Counted from the stretch's first letter, positions 32,753-55,757 are shown. The stretch: DNA of 55,798 nt from an uncultured Gammaproteobacteria bacterium (GCA_964442455.1 CAYTZB010000007.1:1-55798); one strand, 5' to 3'. A program made the numbers and translations. Notes: generated by a model not told the origin, from the sequence alone.

Positions 32753-32826
32753 GCGCCCATAGCTCAACTGGATAGAGCGCGTGGCTTCGGACCATGAGGT
32801 TGGGGGTTCGAGTCCTCCTGGGCGCG
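32753..32826 (+). tRNA. tRNA-Arg(TCG)
   Basis: Hand-folded: GCGCCCA/TGGGCGC acceptor, loop CTTCGGA, GGGGG/CCTCC T stem with TTCGAGT loop. Confidence 0.9.
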
Positions 32827-32942
32827 CAAGATACGAAGTACCTGAGCAGACCAGGGGACGAGAATTTATTCGCCTGTCGCCGAAGGCGACTGACACGGAG
32901 TCACGAGTTTACCGAGGGACGAGTACATCCCTCCTGGGCGCG
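32827..32942 (+). mobile_element. tRNA-3'-end-associated mini element E1 (116 nt, ends in a duplicate of the tRNA-Arg 3' end)
   Basis: Begins ..GATACGAAGTACC, core GGGACGAGAATTTATTCGC, ends ACGAGTACATCC + CTCCTGGGCGCG, repeating 32815-32826. Confidence 0.7.
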
Positions 32943-32947
32943 CACGA

Positions 32948-33019
32948 GGTCCCGTAGCTCAATGGTAGAGCATCCGGCTCTTAACCGGGCGGTTGGAGGT
33001 TCGAGTCCTCCCGGGATCA
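32948..33019 (+). tRNA. tRNA-Lys(CTT)
   Basis: Hand-folded: GGTCCCG/CGGGATC acceptor, TCCGG/CCGGG anticodon stem, loop CTCTTAA, GGAGG/CCTCC T stem. Confidence 0.9.
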
Positions 33020-33120
33020 CTAGATACGAAGTACCTAGGGAGAGCGGGGGACGAGAATTTATTCGCACTCCGCCGATAGGCGGAGACACACAGCGAAGCG
33101 AGTACGTCCTCCCGGGATCA
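33020..33120 (+). mobile_element. tRNA-3'-end-associated mini element E2 (101 nt, ends in a duplicate of the tRNA-Lys 3' end)
   Basis: Begins ..GATACGAAGTACC, core GGGACGAGAATTTATTCGC, ends GCGAGTACGTCC + TCCCGGGATCA; the last 15 nt GTCCTCCCGGGATCA repeat 33005-33019. Confidence 0.7.
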
Positions 33121-33150
33121 CAATTAATGACGCACAAGCCATAAATAATT

Positions 33151-33846
33151 ATGGAAAGCATCGAAAACGGGAACAAAAACTCTGAAGTAAAAACTGTCCG
33201 TCAACATGCGGAGGAGTTTATCCGCTCTCTTCCAAAGGATGGGGTTTTCTTACATCTTACAACTTTTAAGAACTCACAGGTAATTCAACAAGAAGGTGCA
33301 AAAAGCACAAGGGGAAAGATCTGGCAGTTTTCATTCGCCAGTCATTATCCTTTTGTCGATTATTATTCAAGCAAGGGAATAAGGGATACTATCAGAAAAT
33401 TTAGGGGGTCAATAGTAGAAGGACTTAATATGACTGAACATCATCGTGAAGGAGGAGAAAATGTAACTAATTTGTCTCCTGATTCCCTTCCGGTTCTAGT
33501 AATTGGAAGAAAGCAAAGATCTGTGGATTCTACTATGATCGATACCGAAGGAGATTTTAGGAATTTCCCCACAGGTGTTTCAAGATCTATATCTCCAAAA
33601 GATATTCTTTATATATCTACCATTTCACCTGAGGAATATCGTGATTTAGTTGAGAAATCCATGAATGAACCATTACCAAAAAAATATGCGGTATTTAGGT
33701 CTCCAAGGGAAAGGTATATTTTAGAAAAAATTGCAGGAGCTTTGGCCCGAAAGGCTATAATTGGTCTTATGAATCAAAAAAGTGAATACCCAAATACTGT
33801 GAGAACAAAATTAAGTAATTTTTTTGCTAAATTATTCACATCCTGA
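33151..33846 (+). CDS. hypothetical protein (231 aa)
   Basis: ATG-initiated ORF between the tRNA pair and the nuclease / R-M island; no motif recognised. Confidence 0.6.
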   Translation: MESIENGNKNSEVKTVRQHAEEFIRSLPKDGVFLHLTTFKNSQVIQQEGAKSTRGKIWQFSFASHYPFVDYYSSKGIRDTIRKFRGSIVEGLNMTEHHREGGENVTNLSPDSLPVLVIGRKQRSVDSTMIDTEGDFRNFPTGVSRSISPKDILYISTISPEEYRDLVEKSMNEPLPKKYAVFRSPRERYILEKIAGALARKAIIGLMNQKSEYPNTVRTKLSNFFAKLFTS

Positions 33847-33874: not shown

Positions 33875-34627
33875 TCATTCTTCTTTTTTGATAAGTCTTC
33901 GATACTGACAAAACTCACAATCGGGGTAGGGGTCGGGAATATTATCTGAATTAAGACAATCTTTCATCGCAAAAATAGTTGGTTCTACCCAAGAAGCATC
34001 TCCTTTATGAGAAATTATCTGGACTTCAAATTCAATTTTGGCATCGAACACTCGATCACCTTTAAGTCCATTTGCATAAACAAAATAGGCTATATCAGAA
34101 ACATCGAATCCCTTTTGTCTAAAAATCCATTGATACCACTCAACCTGCTTTTTGTATCCTTGCTTATATTCATCATCCAAACTAATTTCTTTCGAGGTAC
34201 TGGTAGATTTGTAGTCAACGATATGAAGTTGACCTTTTGGGTTAACCCAAATATCGTCTATGATTCCGCAAATTTCCAAGTTGGTAGGCTTGTGTAATAC
34301 GCAAGCGCCTACAAATCTCTTGTGGTCATCTCGCCATTCGGGCAAATCCGGATGTTGAAAGGGAATTGCATCTATACCGTATTCCTCCATCAAAGCATGT
34401 TTTTTGCCGTCTTTTCGAAGTAAATCAAACTCATTTTTAAGAAGATGGTCAACTGCATCATTAAGAGACCAGCCAGGGAGTCCGGGGCGATCCAGTCCTA
34501 TCCGACGGTCAAGATAAAAGCATCTTGGGCAACCCAGAAACCCCTCCATCCTTGAGCGTGAAATACGAAAAGGCTCGGTAGATTTTGGATTATAAAGATT
34601 GCCTTTTCTTTGTTTGTATTTATTCAT
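33875..34627 (-). CDS. PD-(D/E)XK nuclease, Cas4/RecB-like with Cys cluster
   Basis: N-terminal CPRC, IIDD ... IVDYKS (D / D-x-K), QVEWYQW (Q-x3-Y), C-terminal CEFCQY. Confidence 0.75.
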   Translation of the reverse strand: MNKYKQRKGNLYNPKSTEPFRISRSRMEGFLGCPRCFYLDRRIGLDRPGLPGWSLNDAVDHLLKNEFDLLRKDGKKHALMEEYGIDAIPFQHPDLPEWRDDHKRFVGACVLHKPTNLEICGIIDDIWVNPKGQLHIVDYKSTSTSKEISLDDEYKQGYKKQVEWYQWIFRQKGFDVSDIAYFVYANGLKGDRVFDAKIEFEVQIISHKGDASWVEPTIFAMKDCLNSDNIPDPYPDCEFCQYRRLIKKEE

Positions 34628-34747: not shown

Positions 34748-37700
34748 TTAAGCCGTAGCATATACTCCTGGACTCCAATCTTGATAAAGAACAGATGCCT
34801 GTTTATAGACAACGTCAACAATCTTCTCACTCTCGCCGGCAGAAAAATTATTCCTCAACAAGAATAGCCTTACGTTAGCGCGGATTTTTGCTTTAATAGC
34901 TTCGTTGTTAGTCCAATCTATAGTTGAACAATCTCGTCTTATCATTTTAACAAGTTCCTTTACTAAATCTTTTAACTTTCCGTTTTTAAGTTCCGTTTTT
35001 CTAGCGTCAGCAATAGCATCATAGAATGCCATCTCTTCCTCACTCAATCCTAAATCTTTCCATGCCGCTTCCTGTTTCCTTATATCTTTTGCCAGCTCAA
35101 TCAAACGTTCAATAACCTTTGTTGAATTAATAATATTATTCTCGTAATCTTCAATTATATCCTCCAAAATTTCCATAAGGGATTTATACCTTACGATGTT
35201 TTTCCTTAGTCTTATTCGAAGCTCATCTTGCAAAAGTTTCTTTAATACCTCAACCGCTAGATTTTTAAACCGCATCTTTTTAACTTCGTCCAAAAATTGA
35301 TCATCAAATATAGAAATGTCCGGTTTACCCTTTCCCTTCATAGCAAAAATATCAATCACGCCTTCCGCAGCGATACTCTTTGAGATAAGCTCTCTAATAG
35401 CTGTTTCGGTGTCAGATTCTAGAATTCCTCCTTCAGTAATAACAGTTCTCTTTATTAAAATTCCTCTAATAGCTTTGAAAAACTCAACATCTCCTCTTAT
35501 TTGATGTGCTTCGTGGTGAGGCATAACAAATGCATGAAGCTTATGCAAATGCTCGCATTCGGTTAAAAATCTCTTCTTTTTTGCCTCATCTATCTTTCCG
35601 GTTTTTACATCAGTAATAACCATATCCACAGCCTGCTGAAGCAATCTTGTTAAGTCAGTATTTGGTAGCTTTTTCCAATTTGAAAATTCCAGACCGGTAA
35701 ACATACTTTTCACCACGTCATATTTCTCCATCATCTTGGCAATCAAATCATCAAGCGGCACCATAGCTTCTTTTTGGATGTCGGAGCTATAAATGCTTAA
35801 GGCTTTTCTCAGATCATCGGCAATTCCAATATAGTCAACAATTAGCCCTGCCAGTTTATCTTTCCAAATGCGATTAACCCTGGCAATTGCCTGAATAAGC
35901 GTGTGTCCTTTTAGGGGTTTATCAATGTACATGGTATGAAGCGGCTGAACATCGAAGCCGGTCAGCCACATATCGCATACTATAACCAGCTTCAGAGGAT
36001 CGTCCGGATTTTTAAATCTTTTCTCAATTTCGCGAGCCTCCATCTCTGTTTGAATCCTGTCTTTAAAACTTTCAGGACTAGAAATCACCACCGCAACTTC
36101 CGGAGCATTAGCTTGTTTTTTAATCATTTGGTACATCTCAACTGCTACCTTCCTGCTTATTGTCACTATCATTCCTTTTCCCTCAATACCTCTATTGTTA
36201 AAATGGAAGATTATATCTTGGGAGATTTGTTCTAGCCTTTCTTTTGCTCCTACCGCCTGTTCCAGCCTTGCAAATTTTTTCTTAAAACTCTCTCGTACAT
36301 CGTATGGGTGTTCGGCAAGTAATTGATCGTATTCCTCATCAATAAAGTAATTAGTTAAATGAAGAGGAACTAGTCTACCTTCATAATAAATAGGTACAGT
36401 TGCGCCATCACTGATAGCTTTATCCATTCTGTATTCGGTGATGTGATCTCCAAATACCAACCTCGTATCTCGGTTATTTAAACTAATCGGTGTTCCAGTA
36501 ATACCCATGAATGAGGCATTGGGGATTGCCGCTCTCATATTGCCGGCAAGCTTGGCATACTCCGAGCGGTGGGCCTCATCTGCAATCACAATGATATTTT
36601 CGCGACGGGATAAGAGTCCGTATTCTTCTCCCTGGAATTTTTGAATAGTAGTAAAAATTAGTTCTGCCCCGGCAGTTTTTAACCTTGTCTTTAAGTCTTT
36701 TACGCCTTCTGTCTGTTTGGCCAGCTTGTCATACCCGGTTCTTAGAAATGTTTTAAAAAGTTGGCTATCTAAATCATTTCTGTCTGTTAAGAAAAGAAAT
36801 GTAGGGCTTTTCAACTCATCCAAATTTTTTGCTTTATTCACATAAAATACCATTGAAATTGATTTGCCGCTTCCTTGAGAGTGCCAAAATACCCCAATCT
36901 TTTTGTTGCCCCGGGGGGAAGTTGCCCGAAGCGTTTGAGAAACGGCCTTGTTGACTCCAAAATATTGGTGATACAAACATATCTTTTTAGTATATGTGCT
37001 GACATCTTTCTCGCTGTCCGCCTCAAAAAGAATAAAATTTTCCAAAATATCCAATAAGCGTAATTTTTGAAAAATACCCTTGACTAAAACCTCAAGCTCC
37101 GTAATACCAAGCTCGTGTTTTTCATCTTCGCTTTCAACGCCTTTCCAGACAGAGAACCACTCCCAAGGAGAGCTGATAGTCCCGTGACGTGCCTCGGTTG
37201 TGTCGCTGACAACCAAAACCTGGTTATATTTGAAAATATCGGGAATATCCTTTTTGTATTCCTGAAGTTGGAAGTAGGCCGATTGAATAGTCGCGCTTTC
37301 CAAAGTAGGGTTTTTAACTTCGAAAATCGCAACTGGTACTCCATTGACAAAAACAATAATATCCGGTCTTCTTACTTTTTCTATTCCCTGGATGGCAAAC
37401 TGATTAACGACCAAAAATTCATTATTTTGTAAATTTTTAAAATCTATTACTTTGGCAAATCGACCTCTTTTTTCGCCATTTTCATCCTCAACTTCAACTC
37501 TTATGCCTTCCGTTAACATCCGGTAAACTTCTTTATTGGCAATTTCCAAATTGGGATGTTCAACGCTTTTTAGTTGATACATGGCATCCTCTATTGCTTT
37601 ATCCGGAAGTTCGGGATTGATTCTGCGCAAAGCCTGCTCCAGCCGTTTTAACAAAATGACCTCGCGGAAGTTCTCACGCTCCGCAAAGGCAACCCCGGGC

Positions 37701-37795
37701 GCCAAATCCGGCCCAAAAGCATATTCATACCCTAACTCCTTGAGCCAATCCAATACCGGCTGTTCAGCTAATGTATCTTCGTTAAGATTTGTCAT
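34748..37795 (-). CDS. hsdR: type I restriction enzyme R subunit
   Basis: 1015 aa; HsdR N-terminal nuclease region, SF2 helicase motifs (QGSGKS Walker A, IADEAHRS DEAH box, QAIARVNR motif VI). Confidence 0.93.
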   Translation of the reverse strand: MTNLNEDTLAEQPVLDWLKELGYEYAFGPDLAPGVAFAERENFREVILLKRLEQALRRINPELPDKAIEDAMYQLKSVEHPNLEIANKEVYRMLTEGIRVEVEDENGEKRGRFAKVIDFKNLQNNEFLVVNQFAIQGIEKVRRPDIIVFVNGVPVAIFEVKNPTLESATIQSAYFQLQEYKKDIPDIFKYNQVLVVSDTTEARHGTISSPWEWFSVWKGVESEDEKHELGITELEVLVKGIFQKLRLLDILENFILFEADSEKDVSTYTKKICLYHQYFGVNKAVSQTLRATSPRGNKKIGVFWHSQGSGKSISMVFYVNKAKNLDELKSPTFLFLTDRNDLDSQLFKTFLRTGYDKLAKQTEGVKDLKTRLKTAGAELIFTTIQKFQGEEYGLLSRRENIIVIADEAHRSEYAKLAGNMRAAIPNASFMGITGTPISLNNRDTRLVFGDHITEYRMDKAISDGATVPIYYEGRLVPLHLTNYFIDEEYDQLLAEHPYDVRESFKKKFARLEQAVGAKERLEQISQDIIFHFNNRGIEGKGMIVTISRKVAVEMYQMIKKQANAPEVAVVISSPESFKDRIQTEMEAREIEKRFKNPDDPLKLVIVCDMWLTGFDVQPLHTMYIDKPLKGHTLIQAIARVNRIWKDKLAGLIVDYIGIADDLRKALSIYSSDIQKEAMVPLDDLIAKMMEKYDVVKSMFTGLEFSNWKKLPNTDLTRLLQQAVDMVITDVKTGKIDEAKKKRFLTECEHLHKLHAFVMPHHEAHQIRGDVEFFKAIRGILIKRTVITEGGILESDTETAIRELISKSIAAEGVIDIFAMKGKGKPDISIFDDQFLDEVKKMRFKNLAVEVLKKLLQDELRIRLRKNIVRYKSLMEILEDIIEDYENNIINSTKVIERLIELAKDIRKQEAAWKDLGLSEEEMAFYDAIADARKTELKNGKLKDLVKELVKMIRRDCSTIDWTNNEAIKAKIRANVRLFLLRNNFSAGESEKIVDVVYKQASVLYQDWSPGVYATA

Positions 37796-38550
37796 AGACT
37801 ACTTTTAGACCATTCTAAAAACTTCTCAATAGTATTTCTTGTGTACTGCATAAATTCCTTACGCTTTTCGTAAGTTATCGGAGGGTAATTGCCATGACGA
37901 TTGTTTTTAGCAAAACTTAACAAGTCCAGATTTTTCGTAATTGATAAACTGGATGCCATTTTTTCCCAAGCATTTTTATCTCGTTTGCTGTCATCTTTTA
38001 TGTTATGGTCATCGAAGTAAGTCCTTCGTATTGTTTCGAGAGCTCTTAGACAATATAGCGCAGTCGTTCGGGGATATTTAATTGATCTACGATAATCAGT
38101 CAAAGCAAGAGATATGGCATTAGATTTTTCCTGAAGCCTCATTACTTGATCCAGCATTTTGGAGAAATCATCATGCTTAGCTTTGTATCCCCACTCGCCT
38201 ATAACTGGAAAGTCGTAATTTAATCCTGTTTGTTTGCATGTAACTTTATCTATAGAAACATCGTAATTGTACGAGTTAACGAAACAAAAGGTATCAACAA
38301 AAGTGCGAATAGTTTCCTCTATATAATTTTTGAGTGTCTCTATATTTGGCTCTGTATCTTGGTCAAATTTCTGATCTGTTTCAAATATAGCTTTTGCTTT
38401 GGAATTTTTTACTTCGAGCGAAAACCTACCATTTATGCCCCAGTCAGGAATTAAGATTGAAACCTCTCCATAACGATTCTCTAAGCTACTCAAGTCAAAC
38501 CTAACCCTTTCTGGATAAACAAGTCCTAAAAACTCATACCTGTATTTCAT
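37792..38550 (-). CDS. uncharacterised protein embedded between hsdS and hsdR (252 aa)
   Basis: Starts 2 nt after the hsdS stop; its TGA overlaps the hsdR ATG (ATGA); no P-loop; helical C-half contains RRTYFDDH (an R-x5-H spacing). Confidence 0.75.
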   Translation of the reverse strand: MKYRYEFLGLVYPERVRFDLSSLENRYGEVSILIPDWGINGRFSLEVKNSKAKAIFETDQKFDQDTEPNIETLKNYIEETIRTFVDTFCFVNSYNYDVSIDKVTCKQTGLNYDFPVIGEWGYKAKHDDFSKMLDQVMRLQEKSNAISLALTDYRRSIKYPRTTALYCLRALETIRRTYFDDHNIKDDSKRDKNAWEKMASSLSITKNLDLLSFAKNNRHGNYPPITYEKRKEFMQYTRNTIEKFLEWSKSSL

Positions 38551-38552
38551 AT

Positions 38553-39749
38553 TTATACTCTTATTTCTCCTCTCATTAACTTTGGCAAGAGTAAATCGCG
38601 AAGGGCGGCCAATTTTTGATTTTCTACCTCTATTAAATTTGTTTGACTAAAAATAGGCCTCACAAAATTTTGGAATTTTTCTATTAAATCGTTTACAGGT
38701 AAAACAAAGTTGTAATCTTCTATTGTTGATTTGCTCAAATGAGCAACATTTGTTCCTCCAGCCGAGCTAGCCATTCGGTAGGAAAATTCTTTTCTTAGCA
38801 TTAAGTAATAAAGAAATTCCACATACAGTTCATCTGTAGCTACCGCACAGACATCGAGTGATATCAATATTTTGTCCCAATGGGAATAAGAAGGGACGCG
38901 AGCAGGATGACCAATTACTTCACGATTGGAAGTTAAGTCTGTCATGGCAATTACGATACCGCCAGGTTTAACTAAATTTGTTGAATTATATCTGCCTGTA
39001 TAAAATTTAATCCCATCAGGATTAAAACCACCACCTCTTTGGAAATTGGCCAAATTTATCATTGGTAACCCTTTAGATTTTTCGTTTATTTCATTTGAAG
39101 AATAAGAAAGGCCTTTATTTATTTTTGCTATGTCTTTAATCTTTTTTGCTTCCCATCCTTTCGGAATTTTGCCCAGTTCGCTATCTACAAATTCTGCCTT
39201 TTCATACCTAGGGAATCTAAAATGTACAAACCATTCTTTAAAAAGCGCTTGGGCCATATCTTCCAAAGTTTTTGCAATTTTATTATTTACCTCAATCTTG
39301 TCATCAAAACCAGAAAGGATAGATATAATACGGTGCTGTGTTGTCTGTGGCGGGAGTAAAACAGATAGATTTTCAAAGATAGGTAATCTCAACGATTTAA
39401 CTGTGGAACCAACTGCATATTTAGAGAGATACTTATTATTGAGGCAAAACCAATAAAAAAGAAATTTATTCAACACCTCATTTTGTAAACTGTATATTGC
39501 ATAAACCCTTTGATGCAGATCGAACTTGCCAGAAAAAAATCGTGGTATAAATTCTTTACCTTCCCCGGGAATAATTACAGCTTCTCTGTCAAAGAGATAT
39601 TTATTGCTTCTCTTTATCTCTAGAGACCTATCGAATAAAGGGTATTTTCCACCGACAACTGCATCTTGTGTATTAGTCGAACCTGTCCCTATTTTCGCAA
39701 TTTCTCCCAATTTCACTTTTTGCCAATTTTTTGGAATTTGATTTTGCAT
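38553..39749 (-). CDS. hsdS: type I restriction enzyme S (specificity) subunit
   Basis: 398 aa, two target-recognition halves separated by a conserved central region (LPPQTTQHRIISILSGFDDKIE) and a C-terminal conserved helix (...LLLPKLMRGEIRV). Confidence 0.9.
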   Translation of the reverse strand: MQNQIPKNWQKVKLGEIAKIGTGSTNTQDAVVGGKYPLFDRSLEIKRSNKYLFDREAVIIPGEGKEFIPRFFSGKFDLHQRVYAIYSLQNEVLNKFLFYWFCLNNKYLSKYAVGSTVKSLRLPIFENLSVLLPPQTTQHRIISILSGFDDKIEVNNKIAKTLEDMAQALFKEWFVHFRFPRYEKAEFVDSELGKIPKGWEAKKIKDIAKINKGLSYSSNEINEKSKGLPMINLANFQRGGGFNPDGIKFYTGRYNSTNLVKPGGIVIAMTDLTSNREVIGHPARVPSYSHWDKILISLDVCAVATDELYVEFLYYLMLRKEFSYRMASSAGGTNVAHLSKSTIEDYNFVLPVNDLIEKFQNFVRPIFSQTNLIEVENQKLAALRDLLLPKLMRGEIRV

Positions 39750-39750
39750 A

Positions 39751-40086
39751 TTATTTTTTCAGTAATCCTATAAGCGGAATCCTATCTAATAAATATTGTC
39801 TTTTCATTTTAAGATGTTCCAACTCTGCTTCCAGAGTTTTACGCTCTCTCTCCACAATTCTATCTAACACTGATTAAGAAATTGGGCCTCTTTGCATAAA
39901 CACTATGTATTCCAAATTATCCATCCAGTCCTTGACTATAAATATGTTTTCTTCTATCTCATTTGTTTTTTGAAAAATATTTCTGACATAAAAATACGAA
40001 AACAAAACTACCCCAATTGACAATACCGCTAGAATTAAACCAGGGGCTTTATTCAACAGCTCACCAATTTGAATCTGATTTTGCAT
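39751..40086 (-). pseudogene. possible hsdS remnant (70-aa ORF 39874-40086 plus an in-frame 40-codon tail 39751-39873)
   Basis: The 5' end and upstream AAAAATAAT..ATGCAAAATCA duplicate the hsdS start (MQNQI...GE(L/I)); after a TAA the same frame reads ...LEHLKMKRQYLLDRIPLIGLLKK, like an HsdS C-terminal helix. Confidence 0.4.
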
Positions 40087-40089
40087 ATA

Positions 40090-40500
40090 TTATTTTTCCT
40101 CCTCTTTTTTAGTAAGGTGTTTGATGAATTCTCTAACTTTCTCATCCTTTAACAATTCCGGATTATCAGCGAATAAATCAAACCAGTAGTCTCCATTTCC
40201 AGAACCATGATAGTTTATAATTCTCGATCTAGAATCTCCCTTTATTCCGAAATATTCAGTCCCTATTGTCCACGCAGTCGATTTTGCAATTAGCGCGAAA
40301 AGAAAGACGATAGTATAGATCACTATAAAAACATCATTTTCAGTAACTTGTGTCGGAAGCCAATTATAAGCAAGGCTAAGTAATCCCAACCATGCAAAGC
40401 CGTATACGATAGGACCTACAAATTTGGTAACAGCACTAACTGATTTATAAATAAGTTCACAGTTAATCTTTAGCTTAACCTTATCCAATGAATTTTGCAT
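40090..40500 (-). CDS. uncharacterised 2-TM membrane protein embedded in the hsd operon (136 aa)
   Basis: ATG 1 nt after the orf345 stop; hydrophobic FVGPIVYGFAWLGLLSLAYNWL and VFIVIYTIVFLFALIAKSTAW; charged soluble C-terminus. Confidence 0.7.
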   Translation of the reverse strand: MQNSLDKVKLKINCELIYKSVSAVTKFVGPIVYGFAWLGLLSLAYNWLPTQVTENDVFIVIYTIVFLFALIAKSTAWTIGTEYFGIKGDSRSRIINYHGSGNGDYWFDLFADNPELLKDEKVREFIKHLTKKEEEK

Positions 40501-40501
40501 T

Positions 40502-41539
40502 TTATTCCCTTCTACTTCCTAGAAATGAACTAATGAAATTACCGACAGGTTCGTTACTATTACCTCCGGGGTCTCCTTTTGATACATAACCAGTCGCACT
40601 TCCTCTAAACATTGCGTCAGCCCCAGAGCGTACTAAAACAGATTTGTCTTCTGGTTCTGGTTTTGAACTCAAAAAATCTTTAAGTGTTTCTGCCACATTT
40701 TTCCTATGTTTATTAATAATTTCTAGGTGAGAGTTTGCACTATAGTTTTTGGAGGCAAAGCCGACAGCATATGATAAAAGGCCAAGAAGTGCTAATTTTA
40801 CTGCACCATACTCAATTGTAAAAATTTCTTTGGGTGGAAAATTTGGCCAAAAATCTAGTTTATCTGAAATGAATAGATAAAGATATACACCGAGATTTGC
40901 AATAATTATAAAAAGTAACCATTTGAAGAAAATAATTCTTCTTGCTTCCCAATCTCTTGCTCTTTGTACATATTCTTTAGCTTGTGCCTCAAAATGTTTA
41001 CCGAATGTTATCGCTGCTATCTCTCCATGCTTGACTTCGACTTCCTGCTCTCTCTTCCCCAGAGCCTCTAACTGTTGTTTCAATTTATCTGATAGGACTT
41101 TATATTCTTTTTCTGCTTGCACAGCCGCTTTCTGTTGTTTTTGTAATTCTTTAGCATCCTGACTTTTTAATGCCGCTTCTTGACGAAGATAAACCAGGTT
41201 ATTTCTTAGATTTCTAAAGACTTCATCATAAAAATTTCTTGTATTTGTTTCAAAATTGTCATGCTGATCTTTATTGAATCCAACTGACAAATCAAACGAA
41301 GCCAATTGTTTTAAATGATTGACAAAGCTATCTATATACTGATCTATTTGGCTAACCTCTGGTTGAGAAAGTGCATCTTGATATGATAATTCTTGTAACT
41401 CCTTAAATAGGTTCTGAAGACGCCCCAAAAAAGGGTAGACTGCATCAAAAGCCAACGAACCAAACTTCTCTTTGTTAAGAGCGAGACTTTTAATATCTAA
41501 ATTTGGTAGAGATTCTTTTGTTATTTCATCAGGGTTCAT
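40502..41539 (-). CDS. uncharacterised coiled-coil + 2-TM protein embedded in the hsd operon (345 aa)
   Basis: ATG overlaps the hsdM TGA (ATGA); about 190-aa helical/coiled-coil N-half, then IIFFKWLLFIIIANLGVYLYLFI and GAVKLALLGLLSYAVGFA, then a soluble tail. Confidence 0.75.
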   Translation of the reverse strand: MNPDEITKESLPNLDIKSLALNKEKFGSLAFDAVYPFLGRLQNLFKELQELSYQDALSQPEVSQIDQYIDSFVNHLKQLASFDLSVGFNKDQHDNFETNTRNFYDEVFRNLRNNLVYLRQEAALKSQDAKELQKQQKAAVQAEKEYKVLSDKLKQQLEALGKREQEVEVKHGEIAAITFGKHFEAQAKEYVQRARDWEARRIIFFKWLLFIIIANLGVYLYLFISDKLDFWPNFPPKEIFTIEYGAVKLALLGLLSYAVGFASKNYSANSHLEIINKHRKNVAETLKDFLSSKPEPEDKSVLVRSGADAMFRGSATGYVSKGDPGGNSNEPVGNFISSFLGSRRE

Positions 41540-43326
41540 ATTTTAATTCTCCTTAGATTTTCCAAAATTTCTTTTTCTAATTTTTCGGATTCTACAAAAT
41601 ATTGTTTTAAATCTTTTTCTAATTTTTCTTTTTTCTCCTTAAAGGGGATGCCATCGTCTTCTTCTTCAGCAACTCCAACATACATACCCGGGTTAAGACG
41701 ATATCCATTTTTTACAATTTCCTCAAGAGTCACTACTTTGCAAAAGCCAGCTACAGCTTTATAATCCTGCGCTCCTGACTCACCCCGGTAAGCCCTTACG
41801 GTTCCGGCTATTTTTTGGATATGCTCGTCGTTGAAGACTACTTGCTTTCTTGAGATTGCCTCAAAAATTTCCCGCGCATCAATAAAAAGTGTTTTTCTGG
41901 TTCTATCATTAAACCGTCCGTTCTTTTTGTTCTTAGTTAAAAACCAAAGGGATACGGGAAGCGAGACATTGAAAAAGAGTTTGGGTGGGCAAGCGATTAT
42001 TACATCAACTAGATCATCTTCTATAATCTTCCTTCTAATTTCTCCTTCTCTGCCGCCAACGGCTAAAGCGCCGTTTGCCATAACAAATCCGGCTATACCG
42101 TTTGGTGCTAAATGGTGTAAAAAGTGTTGAATCCACATAAAGTTGGCATTTCCGGATGGGGGAGTTCCGTATTTGATCCGGGGATCTTTATCGCTTAGGC
42201 GCCCCGGTTCCCATTCGGCATTAAAGGGAGGATTTGCTAGGACAAAATCTGCCCTAAGATCGGGGAATTTATCATCATAATAGGAATTTCCAAGCTCAAT
42301 TTGTCCAAAAATGCCGCGGATTGCCAGATTCATTTTGCAAAGGCGAAGGGTTGTTGGGTTTGACTCCTGTCCGAAAAATGAGATTTTTGATGGGTCTTTT
42401 TTGTGCATCTTTAAAAATTCTCGAGATTGAACAAGCATACCTCCGCTGCCTATGGCGGGGTCAAATATCCGGGCATTTTCAAAAGGTTCAAGGATTTCTA
42501 CAAGTAACCGAACAATTGATCTTGGAGTAAAGAACTCCCCGCCGCGCTTACCTTCTGCGGAAGCAAATTGGCCCAAAAAGTACTCATAAACCCTTCCTAA
42601 GATATCCTTTTCGTAAGTTATATCATCATCAAACTTAAGTTTTGAGAAGATATTAACCAGTTCTCCCAGAGTTTGGGGTTCAAGTTGTGTTCTTGTATAA
42701 ATTTTTGAGAGGACTCCTTTAAGCTGTTTAGGGTTTTCATTTTCAATTGCATCCATTGCCTCATCAAGATAACGGCCGATATCCTGATGGAATGCGTGTT
42801 GCTTGAGGTATTCCCATCTGGCGTTTTCCGGAATATAGAAAACTCCGATACTTTGGTATTGGTCTTTATCATCAATAATTAGCTTGCGGTCTTTTTCATT
42901 GGGAAGATAATATTCTTTGTTTTTGGAATCACTTACCCATTCTTCAATTTGATGCCTCCTTTGGTAAAAAAGGTCAGATACATATTTAAGAAACAAGAGG
43001 CCTAAAACAACGTGTTTGTATTCAGAAACATCTATATTCCCCCGGAGTCTGTCTGCTGCTGCCCAGAGTTCTTTTGCAAAATGGAGGTCTCCATTATAGC
43101 TACGCTTAGGCTCTATAGCTCTTTCTATCGCTTCCTGTTGAGATTCTGTAATTCTGTTTTTAATTTCAAGGGGAAGAGTACTAAATTTTACAAGATATTT
43201 TTTTCCTTCAGTTCTTACTTCAATTTCTCCGGAGTTTATTTTTCCTTGAAGTTGTTTTAATGTTGCTTGGCGGGAAATACCAAGCATTCTTGCCAAATCG
43301 GTAATAGAAATAAAATCTTTATCCAT
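41536..43326 (-). CDS. hsdM: type I restriction enzyme M subunit (N6-adenine methyltransferase) with N-terminal HTH extension
   Basis: HsdM_N-like LWAAADRLRG...VVLGLLFLKYVSD, motif I DPAIGSGGM, motif IV NPPF; the first 85 aa or so carry ISITDLARMLGISRQATLKQL (HTH-like). Confidence 0.93.
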   Translation of the reverse strand: MDKDFISITDLARMLGISRQATLKQLQGKINSGEIEVRTEGKKYLVKFSTLPLEIKNRITESQQEAIERAIEPKRSYNGDLHFAKELWAAADRLRGNIDVSEYKHVVLGLLFLKYVSDLFYQRRHQIEEWVSDSKNKEYYLPNEKDRKLIIDDKDQYQSIGVFYIPENARWEYLKQHAFHQDIGRYLDEAMDAIENENPKQLKGVLSKIYTRTQLEPQTLGELVNIFSKLKFDDDITYEKDILGRVYEYFLGQFASAEGKRGGEFFTPRSIVRLLVEILEPFENARIFDPAIGSGGMLVQSREFLKMHKKDPSKISFFGQESNPTTLRLCKMNLAIRGIFGQIELGNSYYDDKFPDLRADFVLANPPFNAEWEPGRLSDKDPRIKYGTPPSGNANFMWIQHFLHHLAPNGIAGFVMANGALAVGGREGEIRRKIIEDDLVDVIIACPPKLFFNVSLPVSLWFLTKNKKNGRFNDRTRKTLFIDAREIFEAISRKQVVFNDEHIQKIAGTVRAYRGESGAQDYKAVAGFCKVVTLEEIVKNGYRLNPGMYVGVAEEEDDGIPFKEKKEKLEKDLKQYFVESEKLEKEILENLRRIKI

Positions 43327-43335
43327 TTGAACTGT

Positions 43336-43364
43336 ATTATAGCAGAAGGTAACAGAATTGTCAA
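43336..43364 (-). promoter_or_regulatory. consensus sigma70 promoter of the hsd operon (leaderless hsdM)
   Basis: Minus strand TTGACA (43364-43359), 17-nt spacer, TATAAT (43341-43336); only 9 nt (ACAGTTCAA, no SD) lie between the -10 and the ATG at 43326. Confidence 0.7.
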
Positions 43365-43370
43365 GGAGTA

Positions 43371-43400
43371 GTCGACAACTTTTGTTGTCATGTTGACAAC
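43371..43400. promoter_or_regulatory. operator-like repeat cluster (GTCGACAAC / GTTGTCA / GTTGACAAC)
   Basis: Three copies of a TTGACAAC-like half-site just upstream of the -35, which itself reads TTGACAAT; GTTGTCGAAC recurs at 43564-43573. Confidence 0.45.
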
Positions 43401-50473: not shown

Positions 50474-50547
50474 GCGCCCATAGCTCAACTGGACAGAGCA
50501 GGTGCGTTCTAAGCACACGATTGGGGGTTCGAGTCCCTCTGGGCGCG
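50474..50547 (+). tRNA. tRNA-Arg(TCT)
   Basis: Hand-folded: GCGCCCA/TGGGCGC acceptor, loop GTTCTAA, GGGGG/CCCTC T stem; one G-A mismatch at the top of the anticodon stem. Confidence 0.85.
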
Positions 50548-50596
50548 CACTTTTCCACGTTTTCTTTGCACCCTCCCAAAGCGTAGATTTAGCTTT

Positions 50597-55291: not shown

Positions 55292-55376
55292 GCCGGGATG
55301 ACGGAATGGTAGACGTACAGGACTTAAAATCCTGAGGCTCAATAGAGCCGTGTGGGTTCGAGTCCCGCTCCCGGCA
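55292..55376 (+). tRNA. tRNA-Leu(TAA)
   Basis: Hand-folded: GCCGGGA/TCCCGGC acceptor, CAGGA/TCCTG stem, loop CTTAAAA, long variable arm, GTGGG/CCCGC T stem. Confidence 0.9.
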
Positions 55377-55382
55377 CAAATA

Positions 55383-55456
55383 CGGGGACTGGCGCAATTG
55401 GCTAGCGCGCCTCGTTTGGGACGAGGAGGCTCGCGGTTCGAGTCCGCGGTCCCCGA
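55383..55456 (+). tRNA. tRNA-Pro(TGG)
   Basis: Hand-folded: CGGGGAC/GTCCCCG acceptor, CCTCG/CGAGG stem, loop TTTGGGA, CGCGG/CCGCG T stem. Confidence 0.9.
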
Positions 55457-55464
55457 CAAAATAA

Positions 55465-55549
55465 GCAGGTGTGGCGGAACTGGTAGACGCGTACGGTTCA
55501 GGACCGTATGGAGTAATCCTTGGAGGTTCGAGTCCTCTCACCTGCACCA
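55465..55549 (+). tRNA. tRNA-Leu(CAG), CCA encoded
   Basis: Hand-folded: GCAGGTG/CACCTGC acceptor, TACGG/CCGTA stem, loop TTCAGGA, long variable arm; discriminator A followed by CCA. Confidence 0.9.
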
Positions 55550-55550
55550 C

Positions 55551-55632
55551 GCGGACGTGGTGAAACTGGTATACACGCAGTCTTGAGGAGGCTGTCCCGT
55601 AAGGGGTGGAGGTTCGAGTCCTCTCGTCCGCA
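55551..55632 (+). tRNA. tRNA-Leu(GAG)
   Basis: Hand-folded: GCGGACG/CGTCCGC acceptor, CAGTC/GGCTG stem, loop TTGAGGA, long variable arm, GGAGG/CCTCT T stem. Confidence 0.88.
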
Positions 55633-55757
55633 CACGAAGTACGCGGCGAGGGACGAGAATTTATTTTGAGCTTGCGAAAAACAAGCTCTGCTTATTCGCA
55701 TTCGAGCGAAGCGAGAATCTCGCAGGCTCGTGAGCCGAGAAAATCCTCTCGTCCGCA
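55633..55757 (+). mobile_element. tRNA-3'-end-associated mini element E3 (125 nt, ends in a duplicate of the tRNA-Leu(GAG) 3' end)
   Basis: Begins CACGAAGTAC, core GGGACGAGAATTTATT, internal GAGCGAAGCGAGAATCTCGC, ends TCCTCTCGTCCGCA, repeating 55619-55632. Confidence 0.7.

What the first reader, a model, noticed from the sequence alone, without database searches (positions are those of the whole stretch)
34748..43400. Type I R-M operon expanded by embedded, translationally coupled genes of unknown function
Seen in the sequence:
- One consensus promoter (43336-43364) is followed on the minus strand by HTH-hsdM, orf345, orf136, a 70-aa ORF with an hsdS-like remnant, hsdS, orf252 and hsdR.
- The junctions I checked between consecutive ORFs are 4-nt ATGA overlaps (hsdM/orf345, orf252/hsdR) or gaps of 1-3 nt.
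- A working type I system needs only M, S and R. I see no catalytic or nucleotide-binding motif in the extra ORFs.
- The block looks more AT-rich than the core genome. Single hand-counted 60-nt lines gave 18/60 GC at 38221 and 26/60 at 7441.
- It lies next to a tRNA pair carrying insertion scars and next to a Cas4-like nuclease.

Established knowledge: type I loci can host passenger defence genes, such as prrC between hsdS and hsdR in the E. coli prr locus and the rlo genes in Campylobacter hsd loci.

Inference: the passengers form a second-line (abortive-infection-type) module that is physically and translationally tied to the R-M complex.
Basis: partly seen in the sequence, partly recalled or inferred. 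Interest (0 to 1): 0.85.

Follow-up and report, generated by a model that had tools for sequence, protein, structure and literature searches.

The report
Passenger genes inside a restriction-modification operon
An intact type I restriction-modification operon carries three real extra genes and one junk ORF, and the largest extra gene belongs to an uncharacterised membrane-protein family usually found wedged right after the methyltransferase gene of several kinds of restriction systems, which makes it a good but untested candidate for a new anti-phage function.

Summary
One unique consensus promoter drives hsdM(HTH-fused)-orf345-orf136-orf70-hsdS-orf252-hsdR on the minus strand, with junctions of -4, +1, +3, +124, +2 and -4 nt. 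This is the lowest-GC stretch of the window. M, S and R look intact.

- **orf345:** an N-in/C-in two-TM hairpin protein with a ~200-aa helical cytoplasmic arm. It has no Pfam, PADLOC or PDB match. In 23 of 29 informative non-redundant loci its relatives sit beside R-M genes, usually directly after the methyltransferase. The systems are type I, nuclease-MTase-fusion+S, and type III. Its phylogeny is decoupled from the neighbouring MTase, so it behaves as a mobile cassette.
- **orf136:** a two-TM protein with an invariant C-terminal motif. It recurs in the same slot of other type I operons.
- **orf252 (DUF8168):** only loosely R-M-linked.
- **orf70:** a 337-nt lineage-specific insert. Only its first ~6 codons are hsdS-like.

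In related operons the S-to-R slot holds AbiV, PD-T7-4, an AriA/OLD-like ATPase and a reverse transcriptase. Embedding of defence genes in type I operons is already known (PrrC, TgvAB, "guilt-by-embedding"). These are therefore new candidate families of a known kind. An abortive-infection role is plausible but unproven.

The parts
43336..43364 (-). Sigma-70-type promoter: TTGACA, 17-nt spacer, TG-extended TATAAT. The -10 hexamer ends 9 nt before the hsdM ATG, so the transcript is probably leaderless or nearly so.
   Evidence: It is the only perfect match in the window, with 0 expected by chance.
43358..43400 (.). Cluster of TTGTCAA/TGACAAC half-sites: GACAAC-N4-GTTGTC, GTTGTCA-N3-TGACAAC, and one copy overlapping the -35 hexamer. 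This is a candidate operator for the HTH domain fused to HsdM (inferred).
   Evidence: inverted repeats I2, I3, I5; sequence.
41536..43326 (-). hsdM, 596 aa. It has an N-terminal HTH (residues ~6-49, weak HTH_17), HsdM_N and N6_Mtase. The NPPF motif is at 365 and DPAIGSG at 289.
40502..41539 (-). orf345, 345 aa, overlapping the hsdM stop by 4 nt (ATGA). It has an N-terminal helical bundle, a ~140-residue helix running into TM1 (~203-226), a short loop, an amphipathic TM2 (~241-263) and an invariant juxtamembrane N-x-H-R-x-N-V-A-x-T motif (276-285). Predicted topology is N-in/C-in.
   Evidence: R-M association.
40090..40500 (-). orf136, 136 aa, starting 1 nt after orf345. It is a two-TM protein with an invariant cytoplasmic C-terminal motif, W-x-I-G-x3-F-G-x-K-G-D-S ... 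W-F-D-L-F-A-D-N-P.
   Evidence: The same slot is occupied in other type I operons. The gene is conserved next to orf345 in L057.
39750..40086 (-). A 337-nt lineage-specific insert. It holds orf70 (39874-40086, one TM segment) plus 40 further in-frame codons after its stop, ending at the hsdS ATG. This is probably a decayed 111-codon cassette. Only the junction and about the first 6 codons derive from hsdS.
   Evidence: There are no homologs in any fetched locus, and the insert is absent from the closest relative L057.
39731..39759 (.). First copy of the 29-nt direct repeat (the orf136-stop/hsdS-start junction). The second copy is at 40068-40096. The repeats bracket the 337-nt insert.
   Evidence: (family D4, 83% identity, spacing 337).
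38553..39749 (-). hsdS, 398 aa, with two target-recognition domains and the conserved N-terminus MQNQIPKNWQKV.
37792..38550 (-). orf252, 252 aa, soluble, of the DUF8168 family. It has an N-terminal alpha/beta domain and a C-terminal helical bundle. Invariant charged residues include D152, R154, R155, S156, K158, E172, R175, R218 and H219. It starts 2 nt after hsdS and overlaps hsdR by 4 nt.
34748..37795 (-). hsdR, 1015 aa, with HSDR_N, SWI2/SNF2 (DEAH at 406), T1R_D3-like and T1RH-like_C domains.

Best explanation
This is an intact type I R-M operon transcribed from a single promoter. It has accumulated independent accessory cassettes in both of its inter-subunit slots.

Shown:
- M, S and R carry their defining domains and motifs.
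- orf345 and orf136 are conserved membrane proteins whose relatives recur between the methyltransferase gene and the S gene (or Res gene) of R-M operons.
- orf345 behaves as a mobile cassette. Near-identical copies sit beside unrelated methyltransferases, and closely related HsdM genes carry distant orf345 copies.
- The neighbouring S-to-R slot in related operons holds known defence genes.
- The passengers entered by recombination at the extreme 5' end of hsdS and took over its start codon. orf70 keeps 5 hsdS codons, and one orf136 homolog keeps 10. This explains the 1-4-nt spacings.

Inferred:
- orf345, perhaps together with orf136, is a self-contained second-line anti-phage effector that acts at the membrane. 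Its cytoplasmic helical arm would sense an infection cue. The conserved hairpin, which has polar residues in TM2 and an invariant juxtamembrane motif, would oligomerise to depolarise or permeabilise the membrane.
- orf252 is a separate soluble effector, possibly an enzyme, of unknown target.
- Embedding gives co-expression and co-transfer with the R-M system rather than assembly into the R-M complex.
- orf70 is probably non-functional.
For: - Layout, junctions and promoter.
- Intact hsd genes.
- orf345 family: 68 close homologs. The superfamily has 1,466 50%-identity cluster representatives at E <= 1e-10.
- R-M association: 23 of 29 informative non-redundant loci have same-strand R-M genes adjacent. 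The classes are type I, HSDR_N_2+N6_Mtase fusion plus Methylase_S, and type III N6_N4_Mtase/ResIII. A member only about 25-30% identical is followed by Methylase_S with a 1-nt overlap. Another lies in a plasmid cassette array with Hhe and AbiH.
- Cassette behaviour: identity to the adjacent MTase correlates only weakly (rho = 0.18), for example 79% orf345 beside a different MTase class, and 39% orf345 beside a 73%-identical HsdM.
- orf136 occupies the same slot in L045 and L048.
- Known defence genes in the S-to-R slot: AriA/OLD-like 1.5e-28, AbiV 2.5e-8, PD-T7-4 1.6e-10, and RVT_1.
- Insertion junctions.
- Topology and conserved polar TM2 residues.
- Precedent for embedded defence genes: PMC11411939 (TgvAB), PMC12707154 (PrrC), bioRxiv 10.1101/2024.01.29.577857 (guilt-by-embedding).
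Against: - No effector or sensor domain was identified. There are no significant Pfam, PADLOC, PHROGs or NCBIfam hits and no PDB or BFVD fold match.
- Similarities to AbiZ, SLATT_1, DUF6161 and NNH7 are all at or below threshold. They could be artefacts of coiled-coil or TM composition.
- The strict position of orf345, directly after the MTase gene in three R-M classes, is not explained by simple hitch-hiking and hints at a functional link to methyltransferases.
- orf252's R-M linkage is weak: 2 of 5 contexts among homologs more than 40% identical.
- No family member occurs in a tested defence system, and no expression or phenotype data exist.
Confidence: 0.5

Rival explanations
1. orf345, with or without orf136, is an accessory component of R-M systems rather than an independent defence gene. 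It would be a membrane tether or organiser that holds the methyltransferase or restriction complex at the inner membrane where foreign DNA enters. In episymbiotic Patescibacteria that could mean where scavenged host DNA is taken up. The long coiled-coil arm would bind the enzyme and the hairpin would anchor it.
For: - orf345 sits directly after the MTase gene in type I, fusion-type and type III systems.
- Start/stop overlaps suggest co-production.
- The protein is an N-in/C-in hairpin with a ~200-aa cytoplasmic arm.
- The FESNov study placed a transmembrane novel family beside hsdM/hsdS in Patescibacteria and read it as DNA degradation or uptake (PMC10849945).
Against: - The adjacent MTases are of unrelated classes (N6_Mtase and N6_N4_Mtase), and orf345 phylogeny does not track them. 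This is hard to square with a specific protein-protein interface.
- About one in five informative loci, and a Vibrio plasmid copy, have no R-M partner.
- Most type I systems work without such a protein.
- Invariant polar residues in TM2 and at the membrane interface suggest more than a passive anchor.
Confidence: 0.2
2. The passengers would be held inactive by the R-M complex and released as toxins when a phage anti-restriction protein disables it.
For: - There is precedent in PrrC/EcoprrI (PMC12707154).
- The genes are embedded and tightly coupled.
- The orf345 family is enriched beside MTase genes.
Against: - The passengers have no ABC-ATPase or HEPN/anticodon-nuclease domain and no PrrC or RloC PADLOC hit.
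- A guardian must recognise its own R-M enzyme, yet orf345 moves between unrelated R-M classes and occurs alone.
- The passengers are not a conserved set.
Confidence: 0.12
3. The passengers are non-defence cargo: selfish or neutral genes, addiction modules, or membrane proteins with an unrelated role. They would persist only because insertion at the hsdS 5' end is tolerated and gives free expression.
For: - orf70 is evidently junk created by such an insertion.
- orf252 relatives are mostly not next to R-M genes, and one lies in an integron-like array beside dfrA1.
- No defence domain is detected.
Against: - orf345 and orf136 are conserved at 35-80% identity across phyla, with invariant motifs.
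- An R-M adjacency of 79% is far above any background.
- Sister slots hold bona fide Abi genes.
- Payne et al. found that most embedded genes are not mobilome or housekeeping genes.
Confidence: 0.13

Closest known systems
PrrC in the E. coli EcoprrI type IC locus (and RloC / the Campylobacter rlo genes)
   Same: A passenger gene sits inside a type I hsd operon, is co-expressed with it, and acts or is proposed to act as a second line of defence.
   Different: PrrC and RloC are ABC-ATPase plus anticodon-nuclease proteins that the R-M enzyme keeps latent. The passengers here have no ATPase or nuclease domain. Two are membrane proteins. orf345 is not tied to one R-M type.
TgvAB, a GmrSD-like type IV system embedded in the Vibrio cholerae VPI-2 type I R-M operon (PMC11411939)
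   Same: Genes of initially unknown function interrupt a functional type I operon and proved to be an independent, complementary anti-phage system.
   Different: TgvAB are DUF262/DUF1524-type nucleases lying between hsdS-side genes and hsdR. The passengers here have no nuclease signature and no homology to TgvAB or GmrSD (PADLOC).
'Guilt-by-embedding' candidates (HEC and PDC families) of Payne et al. 2024 (bioRxiv 10.1101/2024.01.29.577857)
   Same: The same logic and the same host system class. That study reports that genes embedded in type I R-M, BREX and DISARM are mostly undiscovered defence genes. The S-to-R slot of related operons here holds AbiV, PD-T7-4 and an AriA-like ATPase.
   Different: None of the four passengers matches any PADLOC v2 HEC or PDC model at E <= 0.1, apart from noise. 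That survey used RefSeq genomes, whereas these families come mainly from uncultivated lineages.
AbiZ of Lactococcus (premature-lysis abortive infection) and SLATT-type two-TM effectors
   Same: These are single proteins with a cytoplasmic N-domain and a C-terminal two-TM region, and they kill or lyse infected cells at the membrane. That is the working model proposed for orf345. The consensus of the distant branch of the superfamily aligns with the C-terminal 140 positions of the AbiZ model (E = 4.4e-4), and one member hits SLATT_1 (2e-5).
   Different: The matches are sub-threshold and absent for the window protein itself. Homology is not established. AbiZ has no known R-M linkage.
Transmembrane FESNov family drawn beside hsdM/hsdS in Patescibacteria (Nature 2023, PMC10849945, Extended Data Fig. 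4)
   Same: An uncharacterised transmembrane family from Patescibacteria noted in an hsdM/hsdS context. It may be the orf345 or orf136 family.
   Different: Only a schematic is given and no sequence could be compared, so identity is not established. The authors suggested DNA uptake or host parasitism, not defence.

Membership tests
Type I restriction-modification system | HsdM with HsdM_N and a gamma-class N6-adenine MTase domain, with SAM-binding and NPPF motifs | tested here: met
   PF12161 4.6e-27 and PF02384 4.6e-104. NPPF at 365 and DPAIGSG at 289.
Type I restriction-modification system | HsdS with two target-recognition domains | tested here: met
   PF01420, two stretches, 3.6e-32. PADLOC Specificity_I 1.9e-71 over the full length.
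Type I restriction-modification system | HsdR with an N-terminal nuclease domain, a SF2 motor with a DEAH box, and a C-terminal assembly domain | tested here: met
   HSDR_N 3.9e-48, SWI2_SNF2 1.7e-70 and T1RH-like_C 1.3e-90. TIGR00348 602 bits against a cut-off of 285. DEAH at 406.
Type I restriction-modification system | Methylation and restriction activity | not testable with these tools
   This needs SMRT or nanopore methylome data and plasmid or phage restriction assays.
Single translationally coupled operon | One promoter, no internal terminators, and overlapping or abutting stop/start codons | tested here: met
   The promoter is unique. Junctions are -4, +1, +3, +2 and -4 nt, with one 124-nt gap. 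Terminator-like sites do not exceed shuffles. Actual co-transcription and coupling were not testable.
PrrC/RloC anticodon-nuclease guardians | An N-terminal ABC-type ATPase and a C-terminal HEPN-like anticodon-nuclease domain | tested here: not met
   orf345, orf136, orf70 and orf252 have no P-loop, ABC or HEPN hit in Pfam, PADLOC or NCBIfam.
PADLOC HEC/PDC embedded defence candidates | A match to a PADLOC-DB v2 model | tested here: not met
   The best passenger hits have E of 0.002-0.08 to unrelated models, which is noise.
AbiZ | A significant match to the AbiZ profile | tested here: inconclusive
   The window orf345 has no hit at E <= 0.1. 3 of 57 distant members hit at best 1.4e-4. The consensus of the C-terminal half scores 17.7 bits, E = 4.4e-4, against profile positions 257-398 of 398.
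SLATT two-TM effector domains | A match to Pfam SLATT_1-6 | tested here: inconclusive
   The window protein has no hit. 1 of 57 distant members hits SLATT_1 at 2.1e-5. The consensus gives only E = 0.14-0.23.
NNH7 (NACHT N-terminal helical domain 7, PF22738) | A score at or above the gathering threshold of 27 bits | tested here: inconclusive
   Homologs P0048, P0035 and P0044 score 27.8, 26.0 and 24.7 bits over residues ~55-155. The window protein has no hit at E <= 0.1. The family consensus scores 14.9 bits.
DUF6161 (PF19658) | A score at or above the gathering threshold of 27 bits | tested here: inconclusive
   8 of 57 distant members hit at best 1.1e-4. The C-terminal-half consensus scores 24.4 bits, E = 2.2e-5, against profile positions 80-214 of 216. 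The window protein has no hit.
DUF8168 (PF26505 + PF26504), for orf252 | A match to both Pfam models | tested here: met
   This is indirect. All nine homologs, 41-88% identical over 70-100% of orf252, carry both precomputed domains. The local Pfam copy lacks these models, so orf252 itself could not be scanned.
HEPN ribonucleases, for orf252 | A four-helix bundle with an R-x(4-6)-H motif, or profile similarity to a HEPN family | tested here: not met
   The conserved motif is N-R-H-G with adjacent R and H. hhalign against the AbiV-like and PD-T7-4-like slot neighbours gives probability below 1%. Foldseek finds no match. The only lead is a PADLOC Cas13-ApeA hit at E = 0.0057.

The most novel reading that the evidence does not exclude
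The orf345 superfamily would be a generic membrane-effector 'guardian' that is agnostic to R-M type. It would be placed directly after the methyltransferase gene because it monitors methyltransferase or R-M status, for example loss of the enzyme, SAM depletion or anti-restriction proteins. It would then permeabilise the membrane when restriction is subverted. That would make it a membrane-based counterpart of PrrC operating across type I, fusion-type and type III systems.
Probability: 0.12. Interest if true: 0.8.

Novelty: new variant of a known kind. Interest (0 to 1): 0.5.

Why it matters
Embedding of defence genes in R-M operons is established, so the architecture itself is not new. What this analysis adds is as follows.

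- **A large uncharacterised superfamily.** At least 1,400 50%-identity clusters of coiled-coil/two-TM proteins have an unusually specific genomic address, directly downstream of the methyltransferase gene in three different R-M architectures. The superfamily has no curated Pfam or PADLOC model.
- **A second small membrane family, orf136,** sharing that slot.
- **Sequence evidence for how embedding happens.** Cassettes are inserted at the extreme 5' end of hsdS and capture its start codon.

If orf345 proves to be an anti-phage effector, it adds a widespread membrane-acting system found mostly in uncultivated lineages that RefSeq-based surveys missed. If it instead proves to be an R-M accessory factor, it would change how multi-subunit R-M enzymes are thought to be organised in these small-genome bacteria. 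Either outcome can be tested with a simple cloning experiment.

Tried and rejected
- **orf136 as a paralog of the orf345 two-TM module.** A BLASTP hint (E = 6e-5 in a tiny database) was not upheld by profile-profile comparison (probability 1.5%). Rejected.
- **Fold-based annotation.** The AlphaFold2 models of orf345 (pLDDT 78) and orf252 (pLDDT 81) gave no Foldseek match with E < 0.05 in PDB or BFVD. Profile searches of PDB sequences found nothing.
- **orf252 as a HEPN/AbiV/PD-T7-4 relative.** hhalign probability is below 1%.
- **Phage or viral origin.** None of the three families is in IMG/VR contigs or in GenBank phages for the orf345 superfamily.
- **An att-bounded genomic island.** No copy of a tRNA 3' end lies at the 43.4-kb edge. 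The tRNA 'scars' are local ~100-nt elements.
- **orf70 as a decayed hsdS.** Neither orf70 nor its 40-codon tail resembles any HsdS beyond the first ~6 codons.
- **Rfam.** There are no structured RNAs in 32.6-43.7 kb apart from the two tRNAs.
- **Taxonomic naming via cluster members.** This returned no names. The Patescibacteria assignment rests only on named relatives.

Full report
**1. Observation**

The minus strand of 34748-43326 carries seven consecutive ORFs:

| Gene | Coordinates |
|---|---|
| hsdM | 41536-43326 |
| orf345 | 40502-41539 |
| orf136 | 40090-40500 |
| orf70 | 39874-40086 |
| hsdS | 38553-39749 |
| orf252 | 37792-38550 |
| hsdR | 34748-37795 |

- Junctions are -4 (ATGA), +1, +3, +124, +2 and -4 (ATGA) nt.
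- The promoter at 43364-43336 is a perfect TTGACA-17-TGnTATAAT. It is the only such site in the 55.8-kb window, with none in 100 shuffles.
- Weaker promoter-like and terminator-like sites inside the block are no more frequent than in shuffles.
The lowest-GC 8.6-kb stretch of the window (starting at 33101) overlaps most of the block (36.7% against a median of 42.7%). The operon is 37.1% GC against 42.9% elsewhere.

**2. The R-M core is intact**

- HsdM has HsdM_N and N6_Mtase domains, with NPPF and DPAIGSG motifs.
- HsdS has two Methylase_S stretches.
- HsdR has HSDR_N, SWI2/SNF2 (DEAH), T1R_D3-like and T1RH-like_C domains, and exceeds the TIGR00348 cut-off twofold.
- HsdM carries an extra N-terminal HTH (weak HTH_17) that is conserved in its closest relatives.
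- The -10 hexamer ends 9 nt before the ATG and no Shine-Dalgarno sequence is present.
- Three TTGTCAA/TGACAAC half-site pairs lie upstream of, and over, the -35 hexamer.
- I infer a C-protein-like autoregulated, leaderless transcript. This was not tested.

**3. orf345**

*No known family or fold*
- Nothing reaches significance in Pfam, PADLOC, NCBIfam or PHROGs.

*Structure and conserved features*
- A 24-sequence alignment (A1) and an AlphaFold2 model (pLDDT 78) show an N-terminal helical bundle, one ~140-residue helix that runs into TM1, a short loop and a less hydrophobic TM2.
- TM2 carries conserved polar residues: T241, Y244 and K248.
- An invariant N-x-H-R-x-N-V-A-x-T motif follows TM2.
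- Flanking charges indicate an N-in/C-in hairpin.
- No PDB fold or sequence relative exists.

*Family size*
- The word-indexed search found 68 relatives in Patescibacteria, WOR-1, Margulisbacteria, Schekmanbacteria and Thermodesulfobacteriota.
- An exhaustive profile search found 2,955 cluster representatives at E <= 1e-3 and 1,466 at E <= 1e-10. Nearly all are ~340 aa and match over their full length.

**4. Genomic address of orf345**

I fetched 7 genome loci and 31 metagenome loci, plus contigs found by identity. After de-duplication there are 34 groups, of which 29 have usable flanks:

| Context | Groups |
|---|---|
| Same-strand R-M genes next to orf345 | 23 |
| A divergent MTase nearby | 1 |
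| No R-M gene | 5 |

- The usual arrangement is MTase, then orf345, then S, often with overlapping stop and start codons.
- The R-M systems are of three kinds:
  - Classical type I.
  - A LexA-linked HSDR_N_2+N6_Mtase fusion with a separate Methylase_S subunit (L014, L021, L017, L029).
  - A type III pair, N6_N4_Mtase - orf345 - ResIII (L037).
- A superfamily member only about 25-30% identical (P0190) is also followed, with a 1-nt overlap, by a Methylase_S gene.
- Another member lies on a Vibrio plasmid in a cassette array with Hhe, a HEPN-associated protein, GIY-YIG and AbiH.
- No member occurs in viral contigs or GenBank phages.

**5. Is orf345 a partner of the enzyme or a cassette?**

- Pairwise identities of orf345 and of the adjacent MTase across 17 loci correlate only weakly (Spearman 0.18).
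- The L014 copy is 79% identical to the window's orf345 but sits beside a different MTase class.
- L042 and L035 have 73% and 63% identical HsdM but only 39-40% identical orf345.
- orf345 therefore moves between R-M operons independently of the enzyme genes.
- This argues against a co-evolving structural subunit and for an autonomous function with a preferred insertion or expression site.

**6. orf136**

- Fourteen homologs share two TM segments and an invariant C-terminal motif, W-x-I-G-x3-F-G-x-K-G-D-S ... W-F-D-L-F-A-D-N-P.
- The closest relative of the window operon (L057) has hsdM-orf345-orf136-hsdS.
- Elsewhere orf136 lies in the same M-to-S slot without orf345:
  - L045: hsdM - PIG-L - 219 aa - orf136 - 237 aa - hsdS - AAA_15/21 ATPase - HNH - 260 aa - hsdR.
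  - L048: RadC - hsdM - 225 aa - orf136 - hsdS - 264 aa - hsdR.
- It also occurs once outside any R-M system (L050).
- A suspected relationship to the orf345 hairpin was rejected.

**7. orf70**

- Its stop codon is followed in frame by 40 codons that end exactly at the hsdS ATG.
- A 29-nt direct repeat of the orf136-stop/hsdS-start junction brackets the 337-nt segment.
- DNA homology with L057 stops 19 nt into orf70, and L057 has hsdS directly after orf136.
- Neither orf70 nor its tail resembles any HsdS or any other protein in the fetched loci.
- orf70 is therefore a lineage-specific, probably decayed insert. The 'hsdS-like remnant' is about 6 codons.
- orf136, orf70 and hsdS all start with ATGCAAAAT. 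The orf136 homolog P0081 begins MNNQIPKNWQ, the conserved HsdS N-terminus.
- I conclude that passengers enter by recombination at the extreme 5' end of hsdS and inherit its start. This by itself explains the tight spacing.

**8. orf252**

- Only nine relatives were found. All carry the precomputed DUF8168_N and DUF8168_C domains, which are absent from the local Pfam copy.
- The model (pLDDT 81) has an alpha/beta N-domain and a helical C-domain with many invariant charged residues.
- It matches nothing in PDB or BFVD and is not detectably HEPN-like.
- Contexts seen:
  - The window's type I operon.
  - An 80%-identical copy directly upstream of a type II N6_N4_Mtase plus MutH-like pair.
  - Three copies with no R-M genes.
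- Relatives at 24-26% identity occur on Vibrionaceae plasmids, one in an integron-like array beside dfrA1.
- orf252 is a mobile single-gene accessory element with only a loose R-M link.

**9. The slots in related operons**

In orf345-bearing operons the S-to-R slot holds:
- an AriA/OLD/AbiL-like ATPase (L020, 1.5e-28), AbiV (L007, 2.5e-8) and PD-T7-4 (L036, 1.6e-10);
- a reverse transcriptase (L004) and a 23S-rRNA-IVP four-helix protein (L009);
- several unknown proteins.

The position occupied by orf252 is thus a recognised landing site for defence genes.

**10. Weak similarities**

- Three orf345 homologs reach 24.7-27.8 bits on NNH7, whose gathering score is 27.
- Among 57 distant members, 8 hit DUF6161, 1 hits SLATT_1 and 3 hit AbiZ.
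- The consensus of the two-TM/C-terminal half scores 24.4 bits on DUF6161 (gathering score 27) and E = 4.4e-4 on the C-terminal third of AbiZ.
- All of these are sub-threshold and could reflect coiled-coil or TM composition.
- DUF6161 proteins were flagged by a language-model defence predictor, without any known mechanism.
- AbiZ causes premature lysis at the membrane.
- These are leads, not evidence of membership.

**11. Comparison with what is known**

- Passenger defence genes in type I operons are established:
  - PrrC.
  - TgvAB in V. cholerae.
  - The systematic 'guilt-by-embedding' survey, which reported that more than half of the genes embedded in type I R-M, BREX, DISARM and Hma systems remain unexplained.
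- None of the four passengers matches the PADLOC models that came out of that survey.
- The FESNov catalogue drew a transmembrane novel family next to hsdM/hsdS in Patescibacteria and suggested a role in DNA uptake or parasitism. I could not establish whether it is the same family.

**12. Verdict**

- The finding is real, and the general interpretation (embedded passengers, probably defence-related) is reasonable and in line with the current literature.
- The specific claims are not supported. The passengers are not one coherent abortive-infection module, and a physical tie to the R-M complex is unlikely.
- The genes are independent cassettes. One is junk. The tight coupling reflects the mode of insertion.
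- The most interesting element is the orf345 superfamily, with its strict position after the methyltransferase gene across three R-M architectures.
- I favour an autonomous membrane-acting defence effector (about 0.5). An R-M accessory or tether is the main rival (about 0.2).
- Novelty: a new variant of a known kind. Interest: moderate.

Noticed in passing
window 32753-33121: tRNA-Arg(TCG) and tRNA-Lys(CTT) are each followed by a related ~100-nt element (32773-32883 against 32966-33076, 77% identical). Each element ends in a duplicate of that tRNA's own last 16-18 nt (32814-32831/32930-32947 and 33005-33020/33106-33121). It looks like a small element that targets tRNA 3' ends, or the scar of one. 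Rfam finds nothing beyond the tRNAs.
   Followed up: partly
window 43324-43400: hsdM appears to be leaderless: the -10 hexamer ends 9 nt before the ATG and there is no Shine-Dalgarno sequence. HsdM also carries a fused N-terminal HTH. TTGTCAA/TGACAAC half-sites lie upstream of, and over, the -35 hexamer. This resembles the autoregulation of R-M controller (C) proteins, but with the regulator fused to the methyltransferase.
   Followed up: partly
window 33875-34627 (-) and 33151-33846 (+): A stand-alone Cas4-like PD-(D/E)XK nuclease with a C-terminal Cys cluster (PF12705 1e-12; PADLOC Cas4 1e-8) lies 120 nt downstream of hsdR on the same strand. Beside it is a 231-aa ORF with no family match. 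Both lie in the low-GC stretch, and no CRISPR-Cas genes are nearby.
   Followed up: no
window 50474-50548: ARAGORN calls a tRNA with a CTA anticodon (labelled tRNA-Pyl), which would be an amber-suppressor-type tRNA. I did not examine whether TAG is reassigned or whether this is a false call.
   Followed up: no
L014 159-2768; L021 374-5394: A LexA-like repressor gene (LexA_DNA_bind + Peptidase_S24) directly precedes an HSDR_N_2+N6_Mtase fusion, orf345 and an S subunit. In L008 a LexA-like domain is fused to an MTase. This suggests SOS-type control of these R-M systems.
   Followed up: partly
L045 5136-16040; L048 1034-8831: Other type I operons from uncultivated bacteria are even more crowded. 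L045 has hsdM - PIG-L deacetylase - 219 aa - orf136 - 237 aa - hsdS - AAA_15/21 ATPase - HNH - 260 aa - hsdR. The 219-aa protein contains an R-x4-H (RDSADH) motif suggestive of a HEPN domain.
   Followed up: no
protein P0081 (orf136 homolog); window 40086 and 39749: One orf136 homolog begins with the HsdS N-terminus (MNNQIPKNWQ). In the window, orf136, orf70 and hsdS all begin with ATGCAAAAT. The conserved hsdS 5' end seems to act as a recombination site for cassette insertion.
   Followed up: partly
window 39750-39776 against L057 2830-2850: After the 337-nt insertion the current hsdS has lost the strong Shine-Dalgarno sequence, which now precedes orf70 (AAGAGGAGG). hsdS is preceded only by a weak TAGGAT. 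HsdS expression may therefore be reduced, or may depend on reinitiation.
   Followed up: no
window 55292-55633: A tight cluster of four tRNA genes (Leu-TAA, Pro-TGG, Leu-CAG, Leu-GAG), separated by 1-7 nt, lies at the end of the window.
   Followed up: no
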